A DNA stretch of 64,000 bases from Thermoprotei archaeon (GTDB lineage: Archaea; Thermoproteota; Thermoprotei; Thermoproteales; B15-G16), in assembly GCA_003649205.1 (NCBI GenBank), contig QMRC01000002.1, positions 160,001 through 224,000 on the forward strand, in the 5' to 3' direction. The translations under genes and the position numbers were made by a program. Every line of letters starts with the position of its first letter. Positions within the stretch are counted from its first letter, which is position 1. Positions 1,360-27,998 of the stretch are shown here, piece after piece. Under the pieces are notes generated by a model, which was not told the DNA's origin, did not search any database, and saw only the letters and a program-made list of their open reading frames with translations.

Positions 1360-2334
1360 TTAAGCTTTCCTGCATTGTTTCATCGACTCTATGATCTTGA
1401 CTACTTCTCTAGCGAGTTTGATCTTGGATTTTAGATCAGTCATTACTATGTTGCTTGTGATCACGTAGATTTCGAGTTCCTTACTTATCCTCTCGCCTAC
1501 TTCTCTATCTCTCACATCTACTACCATGGCGTCTACGTAGTCTCTAAGTATTTCAGCTACTGAGTAGCTCGATGGTTCGTAACCTATTGCTTTTAGGAAT
1601 TTATGGAGTGGTCCTGAGAATGGTCTATTACCTACTATTGGTGATATCGCTACTACAGGTACTTCACCGCGTAGCTCCTTTATCTTCTCACCTAGTCCCT
1701 GTACCTTCAGTATAGGTAGTATGCTATTTACCGTGTTACTTGGTCCTATGATTATGGCGTCTGCTTGTTCTAGTGCTGTGATTACGTCTCTTGTTACCTT
1801 TGCTTTCTCTAGTCCTAGGAATGTTATTCCGTGTACTTCAGGTTCCATTCTGTACTTGACTAAGTACTCCTGTATGTGGAGGTTACCTATGTTCGTGAGT
1901 ACGTAGGTTTCTACGTGGTTATCTGTTGCTGGTAGTACTGTGGCTCTGATACGTAGCTTACTTGCTAGGTACTTCGTTACCTGCGTTAGTGTGTACCCTC
2001 TCTTCATGAGTAGTGTCCTTGTAATGTGTGTTGCTAGGTCTCTATCACCGATGTTGAACCATGTCCAGTCTAGTCCGTACTGTTTTGCTTGTTGTAGGAA
2101 GTTGAAGGTGTCTTCTTTGATTCCCCAGTACTTACCTGTATCGAGGATGTTTGCGAAGAGGTATAGTACTGTATCTACGTCAGGTGCTATGTAGAGGTCA
2201 TTCCACCAGAAGTTATCTGCTACGTTGACTACGACAGTTATATCTTCTTCAGGGACGACATGTCTTAGACCTTCGAGTAGTTTGGGCGTTCCTGTTCCAC
2301 CGCTTAGAACTACGAGCTTCACCTTGATTCCCAC
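1360..2334 (-). CDS. cofD: 2-phospho-L-lactate transferase (F420 biosynthesis)
   Basis: LSGGTGTPK, PDVDTVLY, WFNIGDRDLATH, IIGPSN motifs. Confidence 0.93.
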   Translation of the reverse strand: MGIKVKLVVLSGGTGTPKLLEGLRHVVPEEDITVVVNVADNFWWNDLYIAPDVDTVLYLFANILDTGKYWGIKEDTFNFLQQAKQYGLDWTWFNIGDRDLATHITRTLLMKRGYTLTQVTKYLASKLRIRATVLPATDNHVETYVLTNIGNLHIQEYLVKYRMEPEVHGITFLGLEKAKVTRDVITALEQADAIIIGPSNTVNSILPILKVQGLGEKIKELRGEVPVVAISPIVGNRPFSGPLHKFLKAIGYEPSSYSVAEILRDYVDAMVVDVRDREVGERISKELEIYVITSNIVMTDLKSKIKLAREVVKIIESMKQCRKA

Positions 2335-2430: not shown

Positions 2431-3408
2431 ATGTGTTCTCAAGTCTCTATCTCTATCCTGGTTGAGCGTGGTCTATGTTCTAGCTGTGGTGCTTGTGCTG
2501 CAGTGTGTCCCTTCTCAGCTATTGAGTTTCCAGAGCCTTTCTCATTACCTAGGGTAATTGGTGATAAGTGTAGGTTGTGTGGTCTCTGCTATAGGATCTG
2601 TCCTCAGGTAGGTATTGTTGATGAGGTTAGGGGGAGAGAGGTTAAGCCGTTGGCTACGTACATGGCTAGGTCTACTCTAGCTGAGGTTAGGGGGGTTGCT
2701 CAGTGTGGTGGTGTTGTCACTACATTAGCTATGTACTTACTGGATAGGAGGTTCGTTGATGCTGTTGTGTCTGTTGGTAGGGATGAGTACTGGCGTCCAG
2801 TACCTAAGCTCATTACTGATAAGTTGGGGGTTCTCGAGGTAGCAGGTTCGAAGTATACCTACGTATCGGTTCTTACATTGTTGAGAGATGTCGTTAGAAG
2901 TGATGCTATTAGGTCGGTAGCTGTTATTGGTCTTCCCTGTCATATGAGAGCTATTGAGAAAATGAGGAGATTGAAGTTAGCTGCCTCTCAGAAAGTTAAG
3001 TACCTCATCAGCATCTTCTGCATGCACAACTTCGAATATGGTGTAGTGAAGTACATTGTTGAGAAGTTTGGTCTCGATATCAAGTCCATCTCTAAGATGG
3101 ATATAAAGAGGAGGTTCATAGTTAAGTTAGTGGATGGTAGGGTTCTCGAGGTACCTCTCAAGGAGTTAGATCAGTTCGTTAGAGCTTGCTGCCGTAGCTG
3201 TCCAGAGTTTGTCTCCACAATAGCAGATGTCTGTGTCGGTAGTGTAGGTGCTGAAGAAGGTTGGAGTACCGTATTCGTGATGTCTGAGAGAGGTAGAGGA
3301 ATTGTTGAAGATGCTGTGAGAGATCAATACCTTGAGGTTAAGGAGCTACCTGAAAAGGCCATGAAGATTGTGGCGAAGTTAATCAGTATGAAGGTTGGAA
3401 GTAGATAG
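2431..3408 (+). CDS. FrhB/FdhB-family F420-dependent oxidoreductase subunit with N-terminal 2x[4Fe-4S] domain (FpoF/FqoF-like architecture)
   Basis: CSSCGACAAVCP and CRLCGLCYRICP, then AQCGGVVT, GSKY, GLPCH, IFCMHNF, CCRSC, ADVCVGSVG. Confidence 0.88.
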   Translation: MCSQVSISILVERGLCSSCGACAAVCPFSAIEFPEPFSLPRVIGDKCRLCGLCYRICPQVGIVDEVRGREVKPLATYMARSTLAEVRGVAQCGGVVTTLAMYLLDRRFVDAVVSVGRDEYWRPVPKLITDKLGVLEVAGSKYTYVSVLTLLRDVVRSDAIRSVAVIGLPCHMRAIEKMRRLKLAASQKVKYLISIFCMHNFEYGVVKYIVEKFGLDIKSISKMDIKRRFIVKLVDGRVLEVPLKELDQFVRACCRSCPEFVSTIADVCVGSVGAEEGWSTVFVMSERGRGIVEDAVRDQYLEVKELPEKAMKIVAKLISMKVGSR

Positions 3409-3468
3409 TAATAACTCAAGTAGCTAAACTTTATTTCCTGAACCAATGTCAGTTAGAGAGGGATCTAG

Positions 3469-5511
3469 TTGAGTAAGCCACTTCACGTCAAGATCGGTAA
3501 GCTCGAGTCCCCTCCCTTAGCTGCTGAGAACATTGATCTGGTCATCGGCTCTGTAGTTATTGAGGAGGAGTGGGAACCAACTGGTCCTGCTTCAAGACCT
3601 TCACTTCCAATGCTGAGGGCTTGGGATCTATTCCTCTTGAAGAGGTATGAACCTATGTACGTAGTTGAGAATAAGCTACAGCACGCAAAGACCTTACTCA
3701 CACTCACGGTATCCGGTGCATTAGCCTACCTAGCACTAGCTAAGAGAAGGCTTAGAGCTGCGTACCGTAGGTTAGGTGAGGATGCCCCAATTGAGTTAGG
3801 TGTTGCTGTTGAGGCTCCACTCACTAGGTTACTGATAGGTATTAGGCCAAAGGTATTGACTGAGCTTGAGGAGCCCCTGAGGTATGCTGAGGAGCAGATA
3901 GTCGAGATCAGTGCAGCTATCCACAGTAATCAGGAAGCTAGTATCGAGGACTTGGAGTCAAAGATGTTTCACATAGGTACAGCTACGCTACTGCTAACTG
4001 AGGTAGCTGAGATAGCTAATTTAATGCTAGTTCCGAAGGGTATTAAGGTACCTGAAAAGCTTGAGTTTGGAAAGGCACTCATTGACTTCACGAAACCTGT
4101 AGTACTTATCCTCGGTGATGTTCCTGAGGTAGTAGATGTTGTTGAGTACTGTGAGAGAAGTGGGTATATCGATAAGATCGAGATCGTGACTGGTGGATGC
4201 TATGCACTAGACACCGTTAGGGTTGGTAAGTACTTGGTTAAGGTCGTTGGTACGCTCGATGACGTTAGGGATGTTGTCGGTAGAGGACTTGTGGACGTAC
4301 TCATCGTTGGTGAGCAAGGTGCTATACCAGACATAGTTGAGAAAGCCAAGGAGAAGGGTACTGTGGTGATTACGACAACAGAGAGAGCTTACCTAGGTCT
4401 ACCAGACCTTACAGGTGTGGATACTGAGAAGATAGTTGAAGCTGTTAAATCAGGTACAGTGAGGGGATTTGCTGTCTTGGATGCACAGAAGTTAGCTGAG
4501 GTAGTACCTAGAGTAGCACTGGTAGTTTATGAAGCTAGAAAGGAAGTGAAGCCTAAAGCTCTTGAGGAGGTAAAGGAGGTCTTTAGCAGGGAGAAGTACG
4601 TAATGAAGCCACCACTCGGACCTGTTCCTGAACCTGTTATCAGGGATCTAGGTGTTCCTGTCGTGATGGGTACTATACCTGGTATAATAGCTGTTGTTGG
4701 ATGTAGTAACTATGGACCTAGCTCACTTGAGGAACTTGGTGAGATCCTTGAGGAGCTGTGTAAGAGGAACTTCCTAATCCTCACGACAGGCTGTACAGCA
4801 ATAGCACTGTCCAAGTACAGGACTAAGGAGGCAGGTCACGGGCTTTACGAGGACTTCCCAGATCAGACATTGGTGATGGGATCTCCAACAGCTATAGCAC
4901 ACATAGCTGGACTCGCACTCAAGGTACCACAGATCTTCGCTAGAATGCCGCTTAGATCAAATGCACCTGCACTAGTCGACTACCTACTTAATAGAGTTGG
5001 TGCTGTTGGTCTAGCATGGTCAGCACCGCTCGAGAGGGATGCAGCAATTGCATGGGGCGTACTAAGGTGTGGTGTACCAGTTGTTGCTGGTCCAGCACTA
5101 GCACCTGTTGGTAGGTTATTCCTTGGTGATCCAACTAAGCCAGAGAAGTACGTGATATACGACAAGAGGACGAAGAAGAAGGTATTCGTTGGACCAGTAC
5201 CTGAGCACCTACTGTGTCTAGCTAAGAACAAGGACGAAGCACTGATACTGATAACTAAGCTAGTTATGAGGGCTAACGATGGTCACAGCGCTAGGGCTAT
5301 CAAGGCATGTCACTACGTCGACATGTACAGGAAAGTACATGGAACACTACCACCAGACCTACCGAACTACATCAGAGCTGAAGCAGACATAGCGATAACG
5401 GTCAAGGACGAGGTCATGAAGTTCCTACAGGAGAAGGGCTGGAAACCACTAGAGGAACCATTGGTAGACCCAACGTGTCTACCGCTACTCCAAGAAATAA
5501 CAAGTTTATAA
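3469..5511 (+). CDS. cdhA: CdhA (ACDS alpha/CODH) homolog lacking most metal-cluster ligands; predicted catalytically inactive
   Basis: CdhA-like blocks EEWEPTGP..LRAWDLFLLKRY, GTIPGIIAVVGCSNY, DYLLNRVGAVG, PVPEHLL, DPT. Only 9 Cys and no CxxC; C-cluster motifs read GDV, GGCY, GEQG, GCSN, GCTA, GSP. Confidence 0.88.
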   Translation: MSKPLHVKIGKLESPPLAAENIDLVIGSVVIEEEWEPTGPASRPSLPMLRAWDLFLLKRYEPMYVVENKLQHAKTLLTLTVSGALAYLALAKRRLRAAYRRLGEDAPIELGVAVEAPLTRLLIGIRPKVLTELEEPLRYAEEQIVEISAAIHSNQEASIEDLESKMFHIGTATLLLTEVAEIANLMLVPKGIKVPEKLEFGKALIDFTKPVVLILGDVPEVVDVVEYCERSGYIDKIEIVTGGCYALDTVRVGKYLVKVVGTLDDVRDVVGRGLVDVLIVGEQGAIPDIVEKAKEKGTVVITTTERAYLGLPDLTGVDTEKIVEAVKSGTVRGFAVLDAQKLAEVVPRVALVVYEARKEVKPKALEEVKEVFSREKYVMKPPLGPVPEPVIRDLGVPVVMGTIPGIIAVVGCSNYGPSSLEELGEILEELCKRNFLILTTGCTAIALSKYRTKEAGHGLYEDFPDQTLVMGSPTAIAHIAGLALKVPQIFARMPLRSNAPALVDYLLNRVGAVGLAWSAPLERDAAIAWGVLRCGVPVVAGPALAPVGRLFLGDPTKPEKYVIYDKRTKKKVFVGPVPEHLLCLAKNKDEALILITKLVMRANDGHSARAIKACHYVDMYRKVHGTLPPDLPNYIRAEADIAITVKDEVMKFLQEKGWKPLEEPLVDPTCLPLLQEITSL

Positions 5512-5555
5512 GTCTCGAAGCAAGAGATTATGAAGGTGATTTACCTATCTCCAAA

Positions 5556-5569
5556 CAACTATATAGTTG
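5556..5569. promoter_or_regulatory. Perfect 14-bp palindrome containing a TATA-like core upstream of cdhC
   Basis: CAACTATATAGTTG, ending 19 bp before the cdhC ATG. Confidence 0.35.
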
Positions 5570-5588
5570 GTTAGGGTGATGTGTAGCT

Positions 5589-7010
5589 ATGTCCTCTAGC
5601 ATAGTACCCGGATTTCCCGTCGACATTGGACCTGCGTACGAGGGTCAGAGAATTAGGAGACCAGACATGTACGTTGAGTTCGGTGGACCCAAGATAGCTC
5701 AGAAGTTCGAGCTACTAAGGGTTAAGAAGTTGGAAGAGGTTGAGGATGAGAAGGTTGAGGTTATTGGACCTGACCTACCTGAGCTGAAAGAGGGTGAGAG
5801 CTATCCAATCGGTATAGTCATTGAGGTAGCTGGTGCAAAGCTCACACCTGAACTAGAGGGTGTTCTCGAGAGGAGAATTCACGACTTCCTAAACTACATC
5901 GACGGTGTCATGCACGTAGGTTCGAGAGCAGACATTTGGATTAGGATAAGTAAGAAGGCATACAGTAAAGGTCTCAATACACTGAAGCTAATTGGTCTAG
6001 CTCTGATCAAGCTATTCAAGAAGACCTTCCCAATGATTGAGAAAGCACAGGTAAAGTTCATAACAGATCTTGAGAAGGTTAAGGAGTACCTAAGTGAGGC
6101 AATGAAGGTTTACGAGGAGAGAGATAAGAGGGCACTAGCTCTAACAGATGAGGAGGTAGATACATTCTACGGCTGTATCCTATGCCAGTCCTTCGCTCCT
6201 GGTCATGTCTGCATAATAACTCCTGAAAGACCATCAGCATGCGGTGCTGTGTCCTGGTTTGATGCTAGAGCAGCAGCCATGATCGATCCCAAGGGACCAA
6301 TATTCCCAGTACCTAAAGGTAAGTGTCTGGATCCAGTTAAGGGAGAGTACGAAGGTGTTAACGAGAAGGTTAAGGAGAAGTCACTTGGGAATGTAGAGAA
6401 GGTGTACCTATACAGCATGTTCGACTATCCAATGACATCCTGTGGTTGCTTCGAAGCAGTAGCATTCTACATACCTGAGGTCGATGGTATAGGTATAGTC
6501 CATAGAGGATTTAGAGGTAAGACACCTATTGGACTAACGTTTGGTCAGTTAGCAGAGCAGGTCGGTGGTGGTAGACAGGTAAGTGGCTTCCTAGGCATAT
6601 CGATACTGTACATGAGGTCCAGGAAGTTCCTAATAGCTGATGGTGGATGGAAGAGAGTTGTGTGGCTACCGAGCGAGCTTAAGGAGAAGCTAAAGGATGT
6701 GATACCACCAGATCTCTACGATAAGATAGCTACTGAGAAAGATGTATCAACTGTTGAGGAGCTAAAGAAGTGGTTGATCGAGAAAGGTCACCCAGTAGCA
6801 GAGAAGCTAAAGGCTGCTGAAGCAGCACCCCCAGCTGCACCACCTGCCGCACCTCCCGCACCTGCCGCTCCAGCTCCTGCACCAGCACCGCCAACAGCGG
6901 TTACGGTACCAGCAGCGGCACCAGCAGCACCACAGGTACCCATTAGGATAGTGCTGCACAATGCTAGGATATACATCAAGAGAGTAGTTGTTGTGAAGAA
7001 GGGTACCTAG
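5589..7010 (+). CDS. cdhC: Acetyl-CoA synthase, ACDS beta subunit
   Basis: A-cluster motifs intact: GCILCQSFAPGHVC..ACG and SCGCFE; ADGGWKRVVW; Pro/Ala linker followed by a short C-terminal beta motif. Confidence 0.96.
   Translation: MSSSIVPGFPVDIGPAYEGQRIRRPDMYVEFGGPKIAQKFELLRVKKLEEVEDEKVEVIGPDLPELKEGESYPIGIVIEVAGAKLTPELEGVLERRIHDFLNYIDGVMHVGSRADIWIRISKKAYSKGLNTLKLIGLALIKLFKKTFPMIEKAQVKFITDLEKVKEYLSEAMKVYEERDKRALALTDEEVDTFYGCILCQSFAPGHVCIITPERPSACGAVSWFDARAAAMIDPKGPIFPVPKGKCLDPVKGEYEGVNEKVKEKSLGNVEKVYLYSMFDYPMTSCGCFEAVAFYIPEVDGIGIVHRGFRGKTPIGLTFGQLAEQVGGGRQVSGFLGISILYMRSRKFLIADGGWKRVVWLPSELKEKLKDVIPPDLYDKIATEKDVSTVEELKKWLIEKGHPVAEKLKAAEAAPPAAPPAAPPAPAAPAPAPAPPTAVTVPAAAPAAPQVPIRIVLHNARIYIKRVVVVKKGT
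6811..6940 (+). repeat. Low-complexity Pro/Ala linker coding region inside cdhC
   Basis: Encodes AAEAAPPAAPPAAPPAPAAPAPAPAPPTAVTVPAAAPAAPQVP. Confidence 0.8.
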
Positions 7011-7021
7011 GGTGTTCATTC

Positions 7022-7240
7022 ATGAGTACGAGACAGGAGGGGAAGAGGAGTACTGAGCAAGGTAGTGAACTAGGTACTGATCTCCTCAACTTCCTCCTTT
7101 CTCTTGTTGGTTTAGGAGCTACTGTTGAACTTCACGGTGTGACGATAACAGCTGAGAAGGTTGTCATAACGAGAATTGAGGGGAGTGGTAGTGAGTCAGG
7201 AGAGAAGGGTAAGGGAAGAGAGGAGAGAAGCAGAAGCTAG
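7022..7240 (+). CDS. Small hypothetical protein of the cdh operon resembling the CdhD N-terminal / CdhC C-terminal motif
   Basis: ATG 11 nt after the cdhC stop; LLNFLLSL..VELHGVTITAEKVVI aligns by eye with CdhD LLKLLST..LEFEDVVIDARELTI. Confidence 0.7.
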   Translation: MSTRQEGKRSTEQGSELGTDLLNFLLSLVGLGATVELHGVTITAEKVVITRIEGSGSESGEKGKGREERSRS

Positions 7241-8561
7241 GAAGGTTGTTGCGGATTTACTCAAGCTACTGAGTACAGCTGATAGACTAGAGTTCGAAGA
7301 CGTTGTGATTGATGCTAGGGAGCTAACTATCGAGTTCATACCCCCATCAGCTCCAACAGGTCCAACGTACCTGAAGCTAACCGTTGAGCCGGTTGGTGTA
7401 CCACAGCCACCAGGTGGTAAGCTAGAGTTCATCCTTGAGGTAACTCCAACAGGCTTTAGATTACTCACACCACCAGTACCTGGTGCTGTACCTATTACAG
7501 TACCGCCCATAGCTGCTGTCCCTAAGCTTGTTGAGTTTATTAAGGTGGAGTACAAGTACCCAAGTCTTGAGTTCAAGGGGTCAATTGCCGAGGTCAAGAT
7601 AGGTGCTACGAAAGCTGAAGGTGGTACGAGATCTACAGTTATTAAGATTGGTGGTGACAATAAGCCCCCTATCTTCAGGTTCCTAGGTTACGTAGTTAAT
7701 AGACCGAAGGTAGCACTAGACGTATTCGATACAACTATCCCACTACCTAGAGCTGTGAGAGATGCGTACGGTGATGTTCTCTCAAATCCCTATGAGTGGG
7801 CAAAGAAGTGTATCAACGTGGTTAAGGCAGATCTAATATCGTTTCACCTAGTCAGTACTGACCCCGGTATCAAAGATGTATCACCACAAGAAGCAGCTAA
7901 AGAGGTTGAGCAGATGCTCCAGACAATAGACATTCCATTCATTGTCGGTGGTTGTGGTAATCCAGTTAAGGACCTAGAGACCTTCGCGAAGGTAGCTGAG
8001 GTAGCTGCTAACGAGAGACTCGTACTGGCATCAGTTACCTTCGGTATGAATATACCTAAGTACGTTGAGGTTGTTAAGAAGTTCAATCACGTAGCACTAG
8101 CCCTCATATTCATGGATGTGACTCAGGCTAAAGCCATATGTCGTAGGTTGATGGATCTAGGTCTCAGCAAGGATAGGATAATTCTCGACCCGACAACGGC
8201 TGCATTAGGGTATGGTACAGAGTACTCCTTTAGTGCAGCTGAGAGAATTAGGTTAGCTGCTCTTAGAGGTGACGAGGATCTACAGGTACCAATGAGCTGT
8301 GCCGCGACAAATGCTTGGGCTGCTAGAGAGGCGTGGATGAAGCTAGATGCGTGGGGTCCAAGGGAGTGGAGAGGTCCTCTCTGGGAAGCTGTTACAGCTA
8401 TGACGATGTTGCTTGCTGGTGCGGATCTCTTCATGATGATGCATCCACTAGCAGCGTCCATAGTTAAGTCTGTTACTGAGTTCATGGAGAAGCAGACGGT
8501 TAGGGATGTTATTGAGAAGGAGGTTTCTGAGTACTATAGCTGGGTGACTAAGAGGTATTGA
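7176..8561 (+). CDS. cdhD: Corrinoid FeS protein small subunit, ACDS delta (true start probably GTG at 7191)
   Basis: IGATKAEGGTRS, DPTTAALGYGTEYS, ERIRLAALRGD, NAWAAREAW, RGPLWE, LFMMMHP. Confidence 0.95.
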   Translation: MRGVVVSQERRVREERREAEARKVVADLLKLLSTADRLEFEDVVIDARELTIEFIPPSAPTGPTYLKLTVEPVGVPQPPGGKLEFILEVTPTGFRLLTPPVPGAVPITVPPIAAVPKLVEFIKVEYKYPSLEFKGSIAEVKIGATKAEGGTRSTVIKIGGDNKPPIFRFLGYVVNRPKVALDVFDTTIPLPRAVRDAYGDVLSNPYEWAKKCINVVKADLISFHLVSTDPGIKDVSPQEAAKEVEQMLQTIDIPFIVGGCGNPVKDLETFAKVAEVAANERLVLASVTFGMNIPKYVEVVKKFNHVALALIFMDVTQAKAICRRLMDLGLSKDRIILDPTTAALGYGTEYSFSAAERIRLAALRGDEDLQVPMSCAATNAWAAREAWMKLDAWGPREWRGPLWEAVTAMTMLLAGADLFMMMHPLAASIVKSVTEFMEKQTVRDVIEKEVSEYYSWVTKRY

Positions 8562-8577: not shown

Positions 8578-10008
8578 GTGCCTAGGAGGATTAAGCCTCT
8601 TGATGTCTATAGGTTACTTCCGAAGCTAAATTGCGGTAAGTGTGGTGAACCGACGTGCATGGTCTTTGCTACTAAGCTGATTGAGCGACAGACTACACTC
8701 GATAAGTGTAGGCCTCTCTTCGAGGATCCTAGATTTAGGGAGAACTTGAGGAAGTTAATGGAGTTGTTGAGGCCTCCTGTTAAGGAGGTTACCATAGGTG
8801 TTGAACCTAATGCTGTTAAGGTCGGTGGCAAGGACGTTGTGTATAGGCATGAATGGACTTGGAGGAATCCAACAGCTATAGCTCTCGATGTTCACGATGG
8901 GATGGGTGATGAAGAGGTTGAGAGGAGGATTAAGTTTGTTAATGAGTGGTTCTATGAGAGGATTGAGAAGAGACTCGGTATTGACTTACTTGCTGTTAGG
9001 TGTGTCTCTGGTAGTGCTGAGCGATTTGTGAAGTTTGTCGAGAAGGTATGTAAGTTAACTAGTAAACCGTTGATCGTGTGTACTCTTGATCCAGCTACTC
9101 TCGAGGAAGTATTGAAGAGGATTGGTTCTCGAAGACCTCTAATCTATGCTGCTACTGAGAGAAATTGGAGGGAGTTCGCTGATCTAGCTGTTAAGTGGTC
9201 TTGTCCTTTGGTTGTTTCAGCTCCTAACGACCTATCTAAGTTGAAGAGCTTAGTGGTCTCGATAGTGAAGAACTTTGGTTATGAGGAGCTGGTACTGGAT
9301 CCAGGTACCTTGGTTAGTAATGGTGGTTTCCTAGATACGATATCGAACTTTACGGCTCTCAGGTACTCAGCTATTGAGTTTGGTGAGAGGGAAGTAGGTT
9401 TTCCACTCATGGCTATACCAGCTACTGTCTGGATCTTCGAGAGTGGTGGTACTGAGGAGCTGGAGTTTAGGGAAGCAATTATAGCGTGTTCGTTAGTAGC
9501 TAGGTACGCGGATATTCTAGTAATGCATAGCTTAAGCCCATGGGTCTACATGGCTGTTCTCTGTCTGAGGGACTGCCTGTACACTGATCCACGAGTTCCA
9601 CCATCAGTTAAACCTGGACTGTACGAGGTGGGTAAACCAACACCTGAATCTCCTCTCGTAGTTACCTGTAACTATGCACTCACAGTATCCCTAGTGAGAG
9701 GAGATCTTGAGAAGAGTGGTATCGATGCTTGGCTACTGGTGATAGATACTGAGGGTACCTCTGTAGCATCAGCTGTTGCTGGTAAGAGATTCACAGCGGA
9801 TAAGATAGCTGAGGCGGTTAAGGAGCTTAAGTTAGAGGAGAAGGTCAAGCACAGGTCGCTGGTGATACCTGGCTACGCAGCTAAGATAGCTGGTGAACTA
9901 GAGGATCTACTACCAGGGTGGAGGGTCTTCGTAGGTCCTAGAGAGAGTAGTGATCTACCTAAGTTCATTAGGGAGATTTGGAGTAAGGAGGTCCTGGGTA
10001 AGGCGTAG
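8578..10008 (+). CDS. cdhE: Corrinoid FeS protein large subunit, ACDS gamma
   Basis: LPKLNCGKCGEPTCMVFA..C [4Fe-4S] motif, YRHE, YTDPRVP, NYALT, VGPRESS. Confidence 0.95.
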   Translation: MPRRIKPLDVYRLLPKLNCGKCGEPTCMVFATKLIERQTTLDKCRPLFEDPRFRENLRKLMELLRPPVKEVTIGVEPNAVKVGGKDVVYRHEWTWRNPTAIALDVHDGMGDEEVERRIKFVNEWFYERIEKRLGIDLLAVRCVSGSAERFVKFVEKVCKLTSKPLIVCTLDPATLEEVLKRIGSRRPLIYAATERNWREFADLAVKWSCPLVVSAPNDLSKLKSLVVSIVKNFGYEELVLDPGTLVSNGGFLDTISNFTALRYSAIEFGEREVGFPLMAIPATVWIFESGGTEELEFREAIIACSLVARYADILVMHSLSPWVYMAVLCLRDCLYTDPRVPPSVKPGLYEVGKPTPESPLVVTCNYALTVSLVRGDLEKSGIDAWLLVIDTEGTSVASAVAGKRFTADKIAEAVKELKLEEKVKHRSLVIPGYAAKIAGELEDLLPGWRVFVGPRESSDLPKFIREIWSKEVLGKA

Positions 10009-10010
10009 GC

Positions 10011-10787
10011 ATGAGTATACTGATTGCTGTAAGCGGTAAGGGTGGTGTAGGGAAGACCGTCATCACAGCACTCATGCTAAAGGCAATTACTGAGGAAGGT
10101 ATTGAGGATAGGGCTATCCTAGTGATTGATGCTGATCCGGATGCTAATCTAGCAGACGTACTTGGCATACCACTTGATGTAAAGAAAACTCTTGGTTACG
10201 TAGCTACTGAGTTCAAGAAGGAGCTAGAGAAAGCCTCTATATCCGAGGTCGATAAAGCTACAGTACTTCAGACACGAGTACTTGAGGTAGTTCAGGAACT
10301 ACCTAAATTCGACTTCCTCGTTATGTGGAGAACTGAAGGTGAGGGCTGTTATTGCTTTGTTAACGCAGTTCTCTCCAATGTTCTTGAGTGGTTAATGGAT
10401 CAGTACGACATAATCCTAGCTGATTGTGAAGCAGGGTTAGAGCACTTCAATAGACGAGTTTTCAAAGCAATAGACTACTTAGTACTGGTTACTGATCAGA
10501 GTAAAGCGAGCTTCGATACTGTTAAGAGAGTTCTAGATGTTGTTCATGAAGTGGGTATAAGGGTTAGGAATGTGGGTATCGTAGTCAATAAGTTCAGAGA
10601 ACACTATAGAGAACGAGTTACGAAACTTGCTAGTGAAATTGGAGTAGAGATTTGGGGATTCGTACCATATAGTGAGGCCATTGAGGAATTTATGTCTGAA
10701 GCTAGATCACTGATGGAGTTACCGAGAGATGAAGCTGCTTATGTAGCTGTGAAGGAGGTACTCAAGAAAAAAATAGGTATTTTGTAG
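10011..10787 (+). CDS. cooC: CooC/AcsF-type nickel-insertion ATPase
   Basis: GKGGVGKT, IDADPDANL, EGCYC, DCEAGLEH. Confidence 0.9.
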   Translation: MSILIAVSGKGGVGKTVITALMLKAITEEGIEDRAILVIDADPDANLADVLGIPLDVKKTLGYVATEFKKELEKASISEVDKATVLQTRVLEVVQELPKFDFLVMWRTEGEGCYCFVNAVLSNVLEWLMDQYDIILADCEAGLEHFNRRVFKAIDYLVLVTDQSKASFDTVKRVLDVVHEVGIRVRNVGIVVNKFREHYRERVTKLASEIGVEIWGFVPYSEAIEEFMSEARSLMELPRDEAAYVAVKEVLKKKIGIL

Positions 10788-10796
10788 GTTCCCGTT

Positions 10797-11795
10797 CTAG
10801 CTCCTTAACTTCTTGACTATTTCACCGATTAGTGCAAGAGCTTCTTTCTTCTTCGGACCTAGTGGTGATCCCATTACAATGTGAGTTATTCCAGCCTTGA
10901 TTAACTCTCTAAGTTTCTCAATGCACTCATCTGGTGAGCCTGAAATTGAGAAGTAGTCTAGCATTAAGTCATCTACGTTCTCAGCAGCTTTCTTGAAGTC
11001 TCCCTTAGCTAGTGCTTCTCTGATAGTGCTTACCTTACCTAGATCTATTCCTCGTTCCTTCAGTAATGTATCTGGTGCTCCTGCAACTATGAACGCTACT
11101 ACTAGTCTAGCTGCATCCTTTGCCTTCTTTGAATCTGGTGCTACTGAGAAGCAGGTATACGCTACAATGTCTATCTTGCTGAAGTCCTTTCCAGCTGCTT
11201 CAGCACCCTTCTTAATTAGTGGTATTGCCTTCTCGAAGTCCTTGGGGTGTGATGCGTTTATCAGTACTCCATCACCTAGTTGACCAGCTAGCTGAAGCAT
11301 CTTAGGTGCTTGGGCACCTATGTAAATTGGTATTGCTCTACTTGGCTTGAAGTTTAGTCTTGCTCCCTTAAGCTTGAAGAACTCACCTTCGAAGTTAACT
11401 ACTTCACCAGCAAGTAATCTCCTAATGACTGTCACAGCTTCTCTAACAGCTGTTAGTGGTTTCTTCCTCTCAATACCAATAGCTTCGAGTGTTGCCTTAT
11501 CACCTGAACCTATACCGAGAATAGCTCTTCCACCACTAACCTCATCTAGTGTAGCTACTGCAGCAGCTGTCCAAGCTGGGTGAATAACATATGGGTTTGT
11601 AACACCTACACCTAGAGTTATTTTACTTGTCTTGATAGCCATCATGGTTAATGCGATGTAGACAGTACGGTTGCAGTAGTGATCTGTTACCCATATACTA
11701 TCTAGGCCATTCTGCTCGGCAATGATTGCATACTCGACTAATGTTGAAATAGCTCTATCAGGAACCAGCTCTATACCGAACTTCAAGTTAACCAC
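10797..11795 (-). CDS. mer: F420-dependent methylene-tetrahydromethanopterin reductase (Mer)-like, luciferase superfamily
   Basis: FGIELVP, WVTDHY, GVTNPY, GIGSGD, IYIGAQAPKML, DGVLINASHPKDF, GSPLGP. Confidence 0.85.
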   Translation of the reverse strand: MVNLKFGIELVPDRAISTLVEYAIIAEQNGLDSIWVTDHYCNRTVYIALTMMAIKTSKITLGVGVTNPYVIHPAWTAAAVATLDEVSGGRAILGIGSGDKATLEAIGIERKKPLTAVREAVTVIRRLLAGEVVNFEGEFFKLKGARLNFKPSRAIPIYIGAQAPKMLQLAGQLGDGVLINASHPKDFEKAIPLIKKGAEAAGKDFSKIDIVAYTCFSVAPDSKKAKDAARLVVAFIVAGAPDTLLKERGIDLGKVSTIREALAKGDFKKAAENVDDLMLDYFSISGSPDECIEKLRELIKAGITHIVMGSPLGPKKKEALALIGEIVKKLRS

Positions 11796-12087: not shown

Positions 12088-12870
12088 TTGGTGATCTCCA
12101 TGGGTGAAGTACCTAAGGTAGAGATAATTGGGTTACTCGACTTTCCCGATGTTAAGCCAGGTGATGACCTTGGAAAGCTAATTGTCGAGGTTGCTAGGAG
12201 AAACGGTATTGAGTTCATGGATGGTGATGTAATTGTTATCGCTCAGAAGATTGTCTCTAAGTCCGAGGGTAGAATAGTTGATCTGCAGACCGTTAAACCG
12301 TCTGAGTATGCAGTGAAGTTGGGTGAGGAACTAGGTAAGGACCCTAGATTAGTTGAGGTGGTGCTTAGGGAATCTCATGAGGTTTTGAAGGCTGAGGCAG
12401 GGCACTTGATCTCGCTGACAAGACATGGATTCGTATGTGCTAATGCTGGTGTTGATCTATCTAATGTAGATGGTAGTGGGTTAAGAGTAACGTTACTACC
12501 TGTAAATCCGGATGAGTCAGCTAGGAGAATTAGGGAGAGAATTAAGGAGTTGACTGGTAGGGATGTTGCTGTTGTCATAACAGATACCTTCGGTAGACCA
12601 TTTCGTGAAGGTGTTGTGAATTTTGCAATAGGTATATCCGGTATCCATCCATTTCGTGACTACATAGGTAAGGTAGATAGGTACGGATACGTAATGAGAG
12701 TGACTAAGGTCTGCATCGTTGATGAGGTAGCTGCAGCGGCGGAGCTAGTTATGGGACAAGGTGCTGAGGGTATTCCAGTTGTAGTAATTAGAGGGCTCAG
12801 GTACGAGAGAAGGGATGACGCAAGTATTCAGGAAGTTGTTATGCGTAAGGAGAAGTGGTTATTCAGGTAA
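12088..12870 (+). CDS. cofE: Coenzyme F420-0:L-glutamate ligase
   Basis: AQKIVSKSEGR, CANAGVDLSN, PDESARRIR, DTFGRPFREG, DEVAAAAELVMG. Confidence 0.93.
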   Translation: MVISMGEVPKVEIIGLLDFPDVKPGDDLGKLIVEVARRNGIEFMDGDVIVIAQKIVSKSEGRIVDLQTVKPSEYAVKLGEELGKDPRLVEVVLRESHEVLKAEAGHLISLTRHGFVCANAGVDLSNVDGSGLRVTLLPVNPDESARRIRERIKELTGRDVAVVITDTFGRPFREGVVNFAIGISGIHPFRDYIGKVDRYGYVMRVTKVCIVDEVAAAAELVMGQGAEGIPVVVIRGLRYERRDDASIQEVVMRKEKWLFR

Positions 12871-13032: not shown

Positions 13033-14442
13033 GTGATGTTAATGAGTAGCAAATCCGCAGAGAAGAGTCCTATCTACTACCTCTTCAACCCTCGTAGCAT
13101 TGCCGTGATAGGTGCTTCTCGTGATCCCAAGAAGATAGGTTATCAGATTCTCAAGAACATCATTGAGTATGGATTTAAGGGAAAGGTCTATCCAGTCAAC
13201 CCGAAAGCTGATGAGATTCTCGGACTAAAGTGCTACAAATCCATTCTCGATATACCTGATGAAGTTGATGTCGCTGTCATATCGATACCTGCTCAGTACG
13301 TATTACCTGTTGTTGAGGAATGTGGTAAGAAAGGTGTTAAGGCTCTAATAGTGATATCCTCTGGCTTTGGTGAGGTAGGTAATGTCGAGCTTGAGAGAAA
13401 GCTAGTTGAGACAGCTAGGAAGTACGGAATGAGGATACTTGGACCCAATATCTTCGGTCTCTACTACGGACCTGCTAGGTTGAACGCAACCTTTGGTCCT
13501 AAGGAGGTTATTCCAGGTAACATAGCATTTGTCTCACAGAGTGGTGCTCTAGGTATAGCACTCATGGGGTGGACCATTGCAAAGGGCGTAGCTCTCTCAG
13601 CTGTTGTCAGCATGGGTAACAAGGCAGATATAGATGATGCAGATGTCCTTGAGTACTTCGAAACTGATCCTAACACCAAGGTCATACTCATATACATGGA
13701 GGGTATTAGACCAGGTCTCGGTAGGAGGTTTGTTGAAGTGGCTAGGAGAGTATCTAAGAAGAAGCCAATCATAGTTATCAAGGCTGGTAGAACAGAGAGA
13801 GGTGCTGCTGCAGCAGCGTCGCACACTGGTGCGCTTGCAGGAGCAGATGCAATATACAATGCGGCATTTAAGCAAGCAGGTGTGCTCAGAGCGATAGGTT
13901 TTGAAGAAGCATTTGATTGGGCTAAAGCACTGAGCATGCTACCACCACCTAAGGGTGAGAACGCAGTAATCATAACGAATGGTGGTGGTGCTGGGGTAAT
14001 GGCTACTGATGCAGCTGTTGAGTGCGGTATTCGATTAATGGAGATGCCACCAGATCTACAGGAGAGGTTCAGGAAGTACATGCCACCATTCGGGAGCCCG
14101 AAGAACCCAATAGACTTGACAGGTCAAGCAAGTGAAGAGGCGTACAAAGGTGCTCTCCTAGAAGCATTCAATGAACCTAGAATTCACTCCATAATACTAC
14201 TGTACTGTCAGACAGCAATTACAGATCCAGAGGTGCTTGCTGATAAGATAATTGAGGCTTGGAATGAAGCTAAGGAGAGAAAGCCTATGGTAGTCTCATT
14301 CATTGGTGGAATTGAGTGTGATAGAGCTATGGCGAAACTAGATAAGGCTGGTATCCCAGCATACCCATCTCCAGAGAGAGCTGTTAGTGCTCTCAGTGCT
14401 GTCTATAAGTGGGCTAGATGGGCAGGTTACGTGAAGGAGTAA
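13033..14442 (+). CDS. acdA: ADP-forming acyl-CoA synthetase, alpha subunit
   Basis: PRSIAVIGAS, ILGPN, SQSGALG, phospho-His motif ASHTGALAG, TNGGGAG, NPIDLTG. Confidence 0.92.
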   Translation: MMLMSSKSAEKSPIYYLFNPRSIAVIGASRDPKKIGYQILKNIIEYGFKGKVYPVNPKADEILGLKCYKSILDIPDEVDVAVISIPAQYVLPVVEECGKKGVKALIVISSGFGEVGNVELERKLVETARKYGMRILGPNIFGLYYGPARLNATFGPKEVIPGNIAFVSQSGALGIALMGWTIAKGVALSAVVSMGNKADIDDADVLEYFETDPNTKVILIYMEGIRPGLGRRFVEVARRVSKKKPIIVIKAGRTERGAAAAASHTGALAGADAIYNAAFKQAGVLRAIGFEEAFDWAKALSMLPPPKGENAVIITNGGGAGVMATDAAVECGIRLMEMPPDLQERFRKYMPPFGSPKNPIDLTGQASEEAYKGALLEAFNEPRIHSIILLYCQTAITDPEVLADKIIEAWNEAKERKPMVVSFIGGIECDRAMAKLDKAGIPAYPSPERAVSALSAVYKWARWAGYVKE

Positions 14443-27997: not shown

Positions 27998-27998
27998 A

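What the first reader, a model, noticed from the sequence alone, without database searches (positions are those of the whole stretch)
3469..5511. Catalytically dead CO dehydrogenase (pseudo-CdhA) kept as an intact gene in an otherwise complete ACDS operon
Seen: an uninterrupted 680-aa ORF with CdhA-like blocks from start to end, only 9 Cys and no CxxC. I compared it from memory with the canonical CdhA layout. (i) The N-terminal Cys segment that binds the B and D clusters (CxxCCLCxxGxC...GACG) is missing after RYEPMY (near nt 3650-3690). (ii) The internal 2x[4Fe-4S] E/F domain is missing at KALEEVKEVFSREKY (near nt 4550-4600). (iii) Of six C-cluster ligand motifs, GHN reads GDV, EQC reads EQG and GSC reads GSP, while GGCY, GCSNY and GCTA keep a Cys. 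(iv) The His-rich helix reads ALAYLALAKRR and the SQKA Lys position reads LERD. Inference: two clean in-frame deletions plus ligand loss, with no stops or frameshifts, point to selection for a non-redox role. Possible roles are an ACS docking/activation scaffold, a CO channel or reservoir, or binding of a simpler metal site.
Basis: partly seen in the sequence, partly recalled or inferred. Interest (0 to 1): 0.92.

Follow-up and report, generated by a model that had tools for sequence, protein, structure and literature searches.

The report
Cluster-less CdhA paralog in archaeal ACDS operon
This intact, conserved gene encodes a copy of the archaeal CO dehydrogenase subunit that has lost all its electron-transfer clusters and half of its active-site ligands, yet it is kept under selection next to the acetyl-CoA synthase genes, so it very probably no longer oxidises CO and serves that enzyme complex in some other way.

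Summary
ORF 3469-5511 (680 aa) is a full-length CdhA homolog, with a confident CdhA fold model. It lacks the B/D-cluster Cys segment, the E/F ferredoxin insert, three of six C-cluster ligands (His lost, Cys2 to Gly, Cys5 to Pro) and the acid-base residues.

It is not a one-off, a decaying gene or an assembly artefact. Nine proteins (635-683 aa, 47-54% identical) form a monophyletic clade with the same losses. Only three Cys are invariant in the clade, and they are the three retained ligand positions. dN/dS against the congeneric ortholog is 0.11. An independent metagenome contig spans the gene with no indel inside it.

A divergent CdhA-like gene with all ligands lies about 66 kb away. In two other genomes the short form coexists with a canonical CdhA. 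The nearest full-length relatives are atypical CdhA paralogs that also sit directly upstream of cdhC.

Best reading, about 50%: an ACS-associated subunit that does not oxidise CO and acts in docking, tethering or gas handling, possibly with a small residual metal site. No description was found in print. New variant of a known kind.

The parts
2431..3408 (+). FrhB-like F420 reductase with an N-terminal 2x[4Fe-4S] ferredoxin domain (zeta-like); first gene of the cluster in this genus
   Evidence: Pfam Fer4 + FrhB_FdhB_N + FrhB_FdhB_C. It matches 8rja_E at 163.1 bits and 8riu_B at 141.9 bits over residues 11-321. 8riu_B is the zeta subunit of the F420-reducing CODH. The gene is conserved upstream in G001 (L006, 88% identity) but is not found upstream in other lineages.
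3469..5511 (+). Short, cluster-less CdhA paralog (680 aa, P0001)
   Evidence: AF2 model pLDDT 87.8, pTM 0.87. Foldseek TM 0.86-0.87 to CdhA chains 9c0r_A, 8riu_A and 3cf4_A.
3469..3663 (+). Retained N-terminal extension and EEEWEP..GP motif (residues 1-65), up to RYEPMYV
   Evidence: This is the segment best retained relative to canonical CdhA: identity ratio 0.82. Alignment. Lemaire 2024 and Zimmer 2026 propose this extension tethers or stabilises other ACDS subunits.
3661..3684 (+). Junction where the B/D-cluster Cys segment (about 25 residues in canonical CdhA) is missing; it ends at His72, a residue shared with the P0057-type relatives
   Evidence: Alignment columns 91-115 are empty in all 9 short members. 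All six B/D Cys columns are gaps. H72 is invariant and shared with the P0057 type.
4117..4119 (+). Asp217 at the former C-cluster His (GHN reads G-D)
   Evidence: invariant D217; His column is a gap in all 9.
4198..4200 (+). Cys244, retained C-cluster Cys1
   Evidence: Invariant in 9 of 9; aligned to Cys1.
4318..4320 (+). Gly284 replacing C-cluster Cys2 (DEQC reads GEQG)
4540..4600 (+). Junction where the E/F 2x[4Fe-4S] ferredoxin insert is missing
   Evidence: 20 residues with 0 Cys, against 91 residues with 8 Cys in P0020. Bridged without indel by contigs of runs X2 and X3.
4702..4704 (+). Cys412, retained C-cluster Cys3
   Evidence: Invariant.
4792..4794 (+). Cys442, retained C-cluster Cys4
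   Evidence: Invariant.
4885..4887 (+). Pro473 replacing the Ni ligand Cys5 (GSC reads GSP)
   Evidence: Invariant P473.
5035..5037 (+). Arg523 at the catalytic Lys position; this position is not conserved within the clade
   Evidence: R, A, A, A, M, F, S, S, T across the 9 members.
5589..7010 (+). CdhC (ACS beta subunit) with intact A-cluster motifs and the C-terminal extension
   Evidence: TIGR00316 640.5 bits. The four cluster Cys and the SCGCF motif are invariant.
7176..8561 (+). CdhD (delta, CoFeSP small subunit)
   Evidence: TIGR00381 389.4 bits.
8578..10008 (+). CdhE (gamma, corrinoid Fe-S protein large subunit)
   Evidence: NF003195 538 bits.
10011..10787 (+). CooC/MinD-type P-loop ATPase (probable Ni-insertion accessory protein)
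   Evidence: Pfam CbiA, AAA_31 and ParA. A homolog sits in the cdh operon of L008.
10797..11795 (-). Mer (F420-dependent methylene-H4MPT reductase), convergent to the operon
   Evidence: TIGR03555 458.6 bits.

Best explanation
The gene encodes a CdhA paralog that no longer interconverts CO and CO2. It is kept because it works with the acetyl-CoA synthase/corrinoid module (CdhC, CdhD, CdhE).

Shown:
- It keeps the whole CdhA fold, the N-terminal extension and the C-terminal half.
- It lacks every electron-relay cluster (B, D, E, F), the Ni ligand, Cys2, His and the acid-base residues.
- It is under purifying selection.
- It belongs to a small monophyletic clade whose members mostly sit directly upstream of cdh genes.

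Inferred:
- It occupies the place of the alpha subunit in the ACDS assembly. It would dock CdhC through Rossmann domain 2 and the C-terminal domain, and be tethered through its N-terminal extension.
- This would give the A-cluster its closed, gas-channel-facing state, or vent or admit CO.
- CO2/CO conversion would be done by a separate CdhA with all ligands: the divergent gene about 66 kb away in this genus, and a canonical CdhA-CdhB pair in other genomes.
- The three invariant Cys plus Asp217 probably still hold a simple Fe-S or metal site that stabilises or tunes the former active-site pocket.

My confidence that it is not a CODH and is selected is about 0.9. My confidence in the specific ACS-partner role is about 0.5.
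For: 1. Loss of catalytic and relay elements in 9 of 9 clade members.
2. Selection. dN/dS is 0.107, against 0.043-0.150 for its operon neighbours. 192 of 680 columns are invariant.
3. Gene order. The downstream neighbour is visible in 4 lineages. In 2 it is cdhC directly (window/G001, and L036). In 1 it is canonical cdhA-cdhB-cdhC-cooC-cdhD (L008/L039). In 1 the gene stands alone (L007/L038), with cdhA-cdhB-cdhC elsewhere in that genome.
4. Nearest full-length relatives. The P0057 type groups with the short clade at SH-aLRT 95. In same-order genome G022 (contig C9) a protein of this type lies directly upstream of cdhC-cdhD, while a canonical cdhA-cdhB pair lies on another contig. A CdhC-linked atypical alpha paralog therefore predates the cluster loss.
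5. The parts reported to contact or tether ACS are the best retained relative to canonical CdhA. Identity ratios are 0.82 for the N-terminus and 0.71 for the CTD, against 0.54 for the helical domain that carried B/D. Within the clade, Rossmann domain 2 is the most conserved part, with 77 of 186 columns invariant. The interface description comes from the Zimmer 2026 preprint, sections 8 and 10, and Lemaire 2024, section 7.
6. Division of labour in this genome. Only two Prismane-family genes were found. The other one, P0102, has His, all five C-cluster Cys, Lys, four B-cluster Cys and a 10-Cys E/F insert, but no N-terminal extension and a shortened C-terminus. Its dN/dS is 0.154.
7. CdhC has intact A-cluster motifs. 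FwdA, Ftr, Mch and Mer are present, so the pathway around the gene looks functional.
8. Residual site. Only 3 Cys columns are invariant in the clade, and they are Cys1, Cys3 and Cys4. 28 of 63 positions within +/-4 residues of the seven former active-site positions are invariant, against 28% overall; random centres reach that level in 363 of 10,000 trials.
Against: - No direct evidence of binding to CdhC.
- In one lineage the gene stands alone beside regulators and a membrane protein. In L008 it sits beside a complete canonical cdhA-cdhB. Both fit an accessory or independent function at least as well as an alpha stand-in.
- Recombinant CdhC is reported to be active without CdhA (recalled, no call), so a docking partner is not obviously needed.
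- The invariance of three former ligand Cys and of the remodelled pocket argues that the pocket itself, not only the surfaces, is functional.
- The segment boundaries used are my approximations.
- The retention ratios differ only moderately, and Rossmann domain 2 has a low ratio (0.59).
- The zeta-like F420 reductase upstream suggests that electron transfer is still wanted at this locus, which a pure scaffold does not explain.
- Mtd (PF01993) was not found. The genome is 93.8% complete, so absences are provisional.
Confidence: 0.5

Rival explanations
1. It is a repurposed metalloprotein. The remodelled pocket (Cys244, Cys412, Cys442, Asp217, perhaps Glu522) binds a different Fe-S or metal centre that carries out a new reaction or senses CO or redox state. 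In this genus it would be wired to F420 through the upstream zeta-like reductase, whose ferredoxin domain would take over from the deleted relay clusters.
For: - The three former ligand Cys are the only invariant Cys.
- D217, G284 and P473 are invariant, and the pocket loops are enriched in invariant positions.
- There is precedent for CODH scaffolds without CO activity that hold a different cluster: CooS-V, PDB 7b7q, is among the fold hits, and clade D is described as lacking CO/CO2 activity in PMC13056359 (passages seen).
- A ferredoxin + FrhB gene lies 60 nt upstream and is conserved in G001. It has the same architecture as the zeta subunit of the F420-reducing CODH.
Against: - The FrhB-like gene is not upstream in the other lineages examined. 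Upstream neighbours there are NIL-MMPL, DUF2250, a CooC-like gene and ORFs without a family.
- In the solved complex, zeta docks at the alpha/epsilon junction and takes electrons from the distal E/F cluster. Both epsilon and E/F are missing here.
- No new conserved Cys or His cluster motif appears.
Confidence: 0.2
2. It is a maturation scaffold or chaperone, a NifEN-like paralog of the catalytic subunit. It would hold a precursor Fe-S or Ni species, or hold CdhC or CdhA during cluster insertion together with the CooC-type ATPase.
For: - It coexists with a ligand-complete CdhA in the four genomes checked: G000, G001, G041 and G042.
- It lies directly upstream of canonical cdhA in L008.
- A CooC-like ATPase lies divergently upstream in L037 and inside the window operon.
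- It retains a partial ligand set.
Against: - CooC-type genes are ordinary members of cdh operons, so their presence does not discriminate.
- A full-size protein under strong constraint over its whole length and placed first in the operon looks more like a stoichiometric subunit, but this is weak evidence.
- No precedent for such a CODH scaffold paralog was found in the literature searches.
- The NifEN analogy is recalled, not tested.
Confidence: 0.12
3. It forms a mixed dimer with a catalytic CdhA (the divergent P0102 here, canonical CdhA elsewhere). The mixed dimer would modulate or regulate CODH activity, or attach an otherwise unattached CODH to ACS.
For: - Complementary features in this genome: P0102 has the catalytic set but lacks the N-terminal extension and part of the C-terminus, while the short form has the reverse.
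- It co-occurs with a ligand-complete CdhA in 4 of 4 genomes checked.
Against: - In CODH dimers the C-cluster of one protomer is served by the B-cluster of the other (established structural knowledge, recalled). A partner without a B-cluster would disconnect the active C-cluster.
- P0102 is only 24-25% identical to the short form.
- No P0102-like gene scored in G041 or G042.
Confidence: 0.08
4. It is still a working CO dehydrogenase whose ligands lie at shifted positions, or it is a decaying pseudogene or an assembly artefact.
For: - The Pfam Prismane domain is over its cut-off and the CdhA match is strong.
- The fold is intact.
Against: - No alternative conserved Cys or His is available. Only three Cys columns are invariant, and no relay clusters exist to carry electrons.
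- Against decay: dN/dS is 0.107, there are no stops, and the architecture is conserved at 47-54% identity.
- Against artefact: an independent contig spans the gene with no indel in the ORF, and 9 homologs share the layout.
Confidence: 0.04

Closest known systems
Canonical CdhA (alpha subunit of archaeal ACDS; PDB 3CF4, 9C0Q-T, 8RIU)
   Same: Same fold and domain order: Foldseek TM 0.86-0.87 with 28-32% identity. Also shared are the N-terminal extension, Rossmann domains, C-terminal domain and the position in a cdh operon next to cdhC.
   Different: It has no B, D, E or F clusters. It keeps 3 of 6 C-cluster ligands and has no acid-base His or Lys. No epsilon partner was found in the genome. It scores below the TIGR00314 cut-off.
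Atypical clade-A Ni-CODH structural groups A-4/A-6 of Inoue et al. 2019 (PMC6344411, section 11 read), and the P0057-type CdhA of same-order genomes
   Same: They sit in the same part of the tree (95% SH-aLRT group). They share the lack of a D-cluster, the lost His and altered acid-base residues. The P0057 type also lies directly upstream of cdhC.
   Different: Those groups keep the B-cluster, the E/F insert and Cys2-Cys5. The short clade has lost B, E/F, Cys2 and Cys5 but keeps Cys1. None of the 24 structural groups in Inoue's Table 2 has this pattern.
F420-reducing CODH component alpha2-epsilon2-zeta2 of Ca. Ethanoperedens thermophilum (PDB 8RIU; PMC11493965, section 7 read)
   Same: An F420 reductase with an N-terminal 2x[4Fe-4S] ferredoxin domain is encoded in the ACDS gene cluster. 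8riu_A is the best sequence match of the short CdhA in the PDB.
   Different: There the alpha subunit is fully equipped, and zeta takes electrons from its distal E/F cluster at the alpha/epsilon junction. Here E/F, B, D and epsilon are all absent, so that wiring cannot exist as described.
CooS-V / clade D CODH (PDB 7B7Q)
   Same: It is a CODH-fold protein that is not a CO dehydrogenase and binds a different cluster in the old pocket (title; passages of PMC13056359).
   Different: CooS-V keeps its B and D relay clusters and five of six ligand positions. It is a CooS-type protein and is not linked to ACS.
A1 (prismane-like) domain of bacterial AcsB
   Same: It is a CODH-derived, cluster-free module whose job is to dock ACS on CODH and line the CO path. 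Residues 360-578 of the short CdhA match this domain (6ytt_A; NF040764). Zimmer 2026 states that CdhA Rossmann domain 2 takes the A1 role in archaea.
   Different: A1 is a single domain fused to ACS. The protein here is a full-length, separately encoded alpha paralog.
Incomplete Wood-Ljungdahl pathway of Dehalococcoides (ACS and CoFeSP without CODH); recalled from memory, no call
   Same: An ACS/CoFeSP module operating without a cognate CODH in its operon.
   Different: That system is bacterial and has no pseudo-CODH subunit. Here a second, ligand-complete CdhA-like gene exists elsewhere in the genome.

Membership tests
CdhA, ACDS alpha subunit (NCBIfam TIGR00314) | Whole-protein score at or above the curated cut-off | tested here: not met
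   531.7 bits against a cut-off of 781.3, matched in 3 stretches. In the whole-genome search no match exceeded the cut-off.
CdhA, ACDS alpha subunit (NCBIfam TIGR00314) | C-cluster ligand set: His plus five Cys | tested here: not met
   His is lost, Cys2 is Gly and Cys5 is Pro. Cys1, Cys3 and Cys4 are kept, in 9 of 9 clade members.
CdhA, ACDS alpha subunit (NCBIfam TIGR00314) | B-cluster (four Cys) and D-cluster Cys in the N-terminal segment | tested here: not met
   All six columns are gaps in 9 of 9.
CdhA, ACDS alpha subunit (NCBIfam TIGR00314) | E/F 2x[4Fe-4S] ferredoxin insert | tested here: not met
   13-20 residues with 0-1 Cys, against about 90 residues with 8 Cys. There is no Fer4 Pfam hit.
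CdhA, ACDS alpha subunit (NCBIfam TIGR00314) | Acid-base His (helix) and Lys | tested here: not met
   The helix His positions read Y, L and R. The Lys position is Arg here and varies in the clade.
CdhA, ACDS alpha subunit (NCBIfam TIGR00314) | CdhA fold with N-terminal extension and C-terminal domain | tested here: met
   AF2 model pLDDT 87.8. TM 0.86-0.87 to 9c0r_A, 8riu_A and 3cf4_A. Alignment.
CdhA, ACDS alpha subunit (NCBIfam TIGR00314) | Encoded with cdhC, cdhD and cdhE, and partnered by CdhB (epsilon) | tested here: inconclusive
   cdhC, cdhD and cdhE follow it. PF02552 (CdhB) was not found in the 93.8%-complete genome: best hit 11.9 bits against a cut-off of 21. It was found in 5 of 5 comparison genomes.
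CdhA, ACDS alpha subunit (NCBIfam TIGR00314) | CO:acceptor oxidoreductase activity and Ni content | not testable with these tools
   Needs purified protein.
Prismane/CODH superfamily (Pfam PF03063) | Domain score over the gathering threshold | tested here: met
   98.0 bits against 27.
Atypical clade-A Ni-CODH groups A-4/A-6 (Inoue 2019) | B-cluster, E/F insert and Cys2-Cys5 retained; His and Cys1 substituted | tested here: not met
   The pattern differs: B and E/F are absent, Cys1 is kept, and Cys2 and Cys5 are lost (against Table 2). The phylogenetic neighbourhood is shared.
F420-reducing CODH (alpha2-epsilon2-zeta2, 8RIU type) | Zeta-type subunit (ferredoxin domain plus FrhB-like F420 reductase) encoded in the ACDS cluster | tested here: met
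   It is not specifically closest to zeta: 141.9 bits to 8riu_B against 163 bits to FwdI (8rja_E) and 9tn7_A (F420 hydrogenase/dehydrogenase beta-subunit-domain protein); Fsr 7npa_A 158.5 bits.
F420-reducing CODH (alpha2-epsilon2-zeta2, 8RIU type) | Electron path from the C-cluster through relay clusters to the distal E/F cluster, then to zeta at the alpha/epsilon junction | tested here: not met
   No B, D, E or F clusters and no epsilon. The path is described.
Pseudoenzyme (catalytically inactive paralog kept by selection) | Loss of catalytic residues together with purifying selection and conservation across lineages | tested here: met
   Inactivity itself is inferred, not measured.

The most novel reading that the evidence does not exclude
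In this Thermoproteales genus the ACDS runs with an alpha subunit that has no redox wire at all. Carbonyl chemistry would then be split between a stand-alone, deep-branching CODH and an ACS module whose alpha-like subunit has become a new F420-linked metalloprotein. In that protein the former C-cluster pocket, with three Cys and one Asp, would hold a simple Fe-S centre. That centre would be served directly by the ferredoxin domain of the upstream zeta-like reductase, docking where the B/D segment was deleted. It could, for example, deliver F420-derived electrons to the ACS/corrinoid module or handle CO in a new way.
Probability: 0.15. Interest if true: 0.85.

Novelty: new variant of a known kind. 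Interest (0 to 1): 0.62.

Why it matters
The alpha subunit of ACDS has been treated as a synonym for CO dehydrogenase. Surveys of Ni-CODH diversity remove sequences that lack C-cluster ligands, and they report B-cluster Cys as strictly conserved (PMC13240472, passages; PMC6344411, section 11). A conserved, selected CdhA with no relay clusters and half a ligand set, sitting next to cdhC, is therefore outside what has been catalogued.

If it is a stoichiometric partner of CdhC, it is a natural experiment. It separates the structural and gas-channel role of alpha from its catalysis, which is the open question raised by the recent ACDS architecture work (Zimmer 2026 preprint).

It also affects genome-based metabolic calls. 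In this genus an automatic "cdhA present" would wrongly imply a complete carbonyl branch in this operon. The likely CODH is a divergent gene 66 kb away that scores only 222.5 bits on the cdhA model.

Tried and rejected
Complex prediction. I ran short CdhA residues 365-680 with CdhC residues 1-410, each with its own alignment. The result was no verdict (scores 0.07 and 0.00, mark 0.32, controls not run). It is evidence neither way.

Expression. No RNA holder was listed for the stretch, so nothing can be said on expression. Parts of the stretch without cover in runs X2 and X4 are not evidence.

Model geometry. The AF2 model is not delivered as coordinates to the script box. I therefore could not measure Cys-Cys distances, map tunnels or map the CdhC-contact surface.

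Co-transfer of short CdhA with CdhC. The window CdhC is 66% identical to the CdhC next to the short CdhA of L036 and 51% to that of L008. It is 55-62% identical to the CdhC of same-order genomes. The differences are too small to decide, so I dropped this line.

Conserved upstream partner. Upstream ORFs of other lineages are HcyBio-CBS, NIL-MMPL, DUF2250, a CooC-like ATPase and ORFs without a family. There is no conserved partner, so the FrhB-like gene is specific to this genus.

Considered and rejected:
- Recent lineage-specific deletions: rejected.
- Assembly artefact: rejected.
- Neutral decay: rejected.
- Hidden canonical CdhA or CooS in this genome: not found with TIGR00314 or PF03063. The genome is 93.8% complete, so this is provisional.

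Tree caveats. It was built with the quick method and has SH-aLRT support only. The rows were 51 proteins over 560 aa that I chose. Shorter fragments and most of the 201 stored proteins were left out. The label 'canon' was assigned by length before the ligands were checked. P0102 and P0062 have long branches.

Literature. Searches found no description of a CdhA lacking the B-cluster or of a pseudo-CdhA. What I saw of each paper:
- PMC6344411: section 11 and passages.
- PMC13056359 and PMC13240472: passages only.
- PMC11493965: section 7 and passages.
- Preprint 10.64898/2026.07.07.736967: abstract and sections 8, 10 and 11.
Inoue's Supplementary Table 1 ('others', 21 of 1942 unclassified) and Lemaire's supplementary figures on frhB homologues might list such sequences, and I could not see them. 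Adam et al. 2018, the Dehalococcoides work, the recombinant CdhC work and the NifEN analogy are recalled, not read.

Full report
WHAT IS THERE

The ORF at 3469-5511 (+) is open for 680 codons from a TTG start, with a GAGGG-like motif just upstream. It is the second gene of a same-strand cluster:
- an FrhB-like F420 reductase with an N-terminal 2x[4Fe-4S] domain (2431-3408);
- this ORF;
- CdhC (5589-7010);
- CdhD (7176-8561);
- CdhE (8578-10008);
- a CooC/MinD-type ATPase (10011-10787).

The cluster is flanked by cofD, mer, cofE and an ADP-forming acetate-CoA ligase alpha subunit.

The protein matches the cdhA model TIGR00314 at 531.7 bits in three stretches, below the 781.3 cut-off. An AlphaFold2 model built on a 21-row alignment is confident (pLDDT 87.8, pTM 0.87). 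It superposes on CdhA structures with TM 0.86-0.87, against about 0.5 for CooS-type CODHs.

All quoted motifs are at the quoted coordinates. There are 9 Cys and no CxxC. Against canonical CdhA:
- The roughly 25-residue B/D-cluster Cys segment is missing.
- The E/F region is 20 residues with no Cys, against 91 residues with 8 Cys.
- The C-cluster His is lost, and an invariant Asp217 stands beside the gap.
- Cys1, Cys3 and Cys4 are kept (C244, C412, C442).
- Cys2 is Gly284 and the Ni ligand Cys5 is Pro473.
- The catalytic Lys position is Arg523.
- The His-rich helix has no His.

IT IS A FAMILY, UNDER SELECTION, AND REAL

A word-indexed search of 5.8 billion proteins returned eight further proteins of 635-683 aa at 44-53% BLASTP identity (47-54% in the MAFFT alignment), all with the same losses. 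A profile search of 1.84 billion 50%-identity representatives shows the clade as just two representatives, at 1166 and 1108 bits. The next hit, a canonical CdhA, scores 529 bits.

In a 51-row tree the nine form one clade (SH-aLRT 100) on a long stem, and the window's protein is the first to branch. Within the clade 192 of 680 columns are invariant. Of all columns containing any Cys, only three are invariant, and they are exactly the three retained ligand positions. The replacement residues D217, G284 and P473 are also invariant.

Against the ortholog of the second genome of the genus (94% amino-acid identity), dN/dS is 0.107 over 680 codons. The range for the neighbouring genes is 0.043-0.150.

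One contig from an independent study (run X3) spans 3300-5700 at about 92% identity, and its only indels fall in the intergenic flanks. A contig of run X2 bridges the E/F junction. Decay and artefact are therefore excluded.

CONTEXT IN THIS GENOME

The window lies in a 2.07-Mb assembly that is 93.8% complete. Its same-genus relative G001 (L006) carries the record title 'uncultured Thermoproteales archaeon'.

FwdA, Ftr, Mch and Mer are present. McrA and Mtd (PF01993) were not found.

CdhB (epsilon) was not found: the best hit is 11.9 bits against a cut-off of 21. All five comparison genomes have it. The operon is therefore not "otherwise complete". It lacks epsilon and has gained a zeta-like gene.

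Only two Prismane-family genes exist in the genome. The second, P0102, lies at contig position 229526-231412, about 66 kb downstream and just outside the window, next to hypD. It is only 24-25% identical to the short form. It has His, all five Cys, Lys, four B-cluster Cys and a shortened 10-Cys E/F insert. It lacks the N-terminal extension and part of the C-terminus. Its dN/dS is 0.154. It is the plausible CO dehydrogenase of this organism.

CONTEXT ELSEWHERE

The downstream neighbour of the short gene is visible in four lineages:
- Window genus: cdhC directly.
- Metagenome contig L036: cdhC directly.
- L008/L039: a canonical cdhA-cdhB-cdhC-cooC-cdhD operon.
- L007/L038: the gene stands alone, and a canonical cdhA-cdhB-cdhC lies on another contig of that genome.

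The upstream neighbours differ from lineage to lineage, so the FrhB-like gene is a feature of this genus only.

In same-order genomes of genus g8, a 764-766-aa atypical CdhA (the P0057 type) is found. It has His replaced by Glu and no D-cluster, but keeps the B-cluster, the E/F insert, Cys1-5 and Lys. In G022 (contig C9) it lies directly upstream of cdhC-cdhD, while a canonical cdhA-cdhB pair sits elsewhere. This type groups with the short clade at SH-aLRT 95. The wider group corresponds to the atypical clade-A forms tabulated by Inoue et al. 2019 as A-4 and A-6.

The likely history is therefore as follows. First came a CdhC-linked alpha paralog with a weakened active site. The short clade then lost the whole redox apparatus. 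Finally, in this genus, the canonical cdhA-cdhB pair was lost as well.

HOW IT MOST LIKELY WORKS

What is shown is a CdhA-fold protein that cannot wire or build a C-cluster, is strongly constrained, and is genetically tied to cdhC.

What is inferred is that it fills the alpha position for the ACS/corrinoid module.

Published work places the CdhA-CdhC contact on CdhA Rossmann domain 2 and the C-terminal domain. It proposes that the disordered CdhA N-terminus and the CdhC C-terminus keep the modules together. It notes that Rossmann domain 2 plays the part of the cluster-free A1 domain of bacterial ACS (Zimmer 2026 preprint, sections 8 and 10; Lemaire 2024, section 7).

The short clade keeps all these parts. 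Relative to how much canonical CdhAs resemble each other, the N-terminus (ratio 0.82) and the CTD (0.71) are the best retained. The helical domain that carried B/D is the least retained (0.54). Within the clade, Rossmann domain 2 is the most conserved domain. CdhC has intact A-cluster motifs and its C-terminal extension.

The three invariant Cys, and the enrichment of invariant positions around the old pocket (28 of 63; random centres reach this in 363 of 10,000 trials), suggest that a small metal or Fe-S site persists.

I put about 0.9 on "not a CODH, and selected". I put about 0.5 on the ACS-partner role.

RIVALS

- A repurposed metal centre, perhaps fed by the zeta-like F420 reductase (0.2). 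The solved F420-reducing CODH, 8RIU, has such a subunit encoded in its ACDS operon. There, however, it docks at the alpha/epsilon junction and draws electrons from the distal E/F cluster, and all of these are missing here.
- A maturation scaffold acting with the CooC-type ATPase (0.12).
- A mixed dimer with a catalytic CdhA (0.08). This is disfavoured because a partner without a B-cluster would disconnect the active C-cluster (recalled structural knowledge).
- A still-active CODH, decay or artefact (0.04 together).

COMPARISON WITH WHAT IS KNOWN, AND NOVELTY

The protein belongs to the Prismane/CODH superfamily and derives from clade-A CdhA. It fails five defining features of CdhA: the score cut-off, the C-cluster ligand set, the B/D clusters, the E/F clusters and the acid-base residues.

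None of the 24 structural groups in Inoue's Table 2 has its pattern. One marine survey states that it removed sequences lacking C-cluster ligands and found B-cluster Cys strictly conserved. Such proteins are therefore filtered out by design. Six literature searches found no description. Supplementary tables could not be opened.

Sources name clade members 'hypothetical protein' or generically 'CO dehydrogenase/acetyl-CoA synthase alpha subunit'.

I class it as a new variant of a known kind: an inactive or repurposed CODH-fold protein, like clade D or the A1 domain, but one that is a full-length alpha paralog stripped of every relay cluster and embedded in ACDS operons.

LIMITS

- There is no biochemical data and no expression data.
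- There was no verdict from complex prediction.
- No model coordinates were available.
- Genomes are MAGs, so absences are provisional.
- The tree is quick-mode only.

Noticed in passing
G000:C2:229526-231412 (about 5.5 kb beyond the window end); L002 1444-3519: A second, very divergent CdhA-like gene (P0102, about 685-691 aa) lies next to hypD. It has the full C-cluster ligand set, Lys, four B-cluster Cys, no D-cluster and a shortened E/F insert with 10 Cys. It has no N-terminal extension. It scores only 222.5 bits on the cdhA model, and in the tree it forms a separate long-branched pair with P0075. It is probably the organism's real CODH.
   Followed up: partly
window 2431-3408 (+): A ferredoxin-domain plus FrhB-like F420 reductase has the architecture of the zeta subunit of the F420-reducing CODH (8RIU) and of FwdI (8RJA). 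It lies 60 nt upstream of a CdhA that has no clusters to hand it electrons. Its partner is unknown.
   Followed up: partly
L013/L048 (G022 contig C9), L011 (G028), L018 (G022 contig C2): Same-order genomes carry two alpha paralogs. In G022 (contig C9) an atypical 766-aa CdhA (His replaced by Glu, no D-cluster) lies directly upstream of cdhC-cdhD without cdhB; G028 has the 764-aa equivalent (L011). A canonical CdhA-CdhB pair lies on another contig. In G020 cdhA-cdhB-mer and cdhC-cdhD-cdhE are on separate contigs.
   Followed up: partly
proteins P0049/P0058, P0062, P0066, P0088: There are other degenerate CdhA-like lineages in public data. P0049 and P0058 (695 aa) keep the four B-cluster Cys but have lost all six C-cluster ligands and the E/F insert. 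P0062 and P0066 lack B/D and E/F but keep Cys2-Cys5. Loss of parts of the CODH apparatus has happened several times.
   Followed up: no
window 1360-2334 (-), 10797-11795 (-), 12088-12870 (+), 13033-14442 (+): cofD, mer, cofE and an ADP-forming acetate-CoA ligase alpha subunit flank the cdh cluster. Together they form an F420/H4MPT/acetyl-CoA gene neighbourhood in a Thermoproteales genome. McrA and Mtd (PF01993) were not found in the genome.
   Followed up: partly
L039 3-311 and 339-1604: In one metagenome contig the short CdhA gene (98% identical to that of L008) is split into two reading frames just upstream of the canonical cdhA. This may be a frameshift or a sequencing error.
   Followed up: no
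G000:C3:102308-102433 (-) and G000:C3:188996-189121 (+); L019, L020: Two weak PF02552 matches have identical scores (11.9 bits, each with the same two stops) on opposite strands of contig C3, about 87 kb apart. This suggests an inverted duplicated segment.
   Followed up: no
window 26504-29162 (+): A HerA-like ATPase (DUF87) is followed by a NurA-domain gene, the usual archaeal end-resection pair. Lhr-type helicase (41684-44563) and RadA (51936-52985) are also in the window.
   Followed up: no
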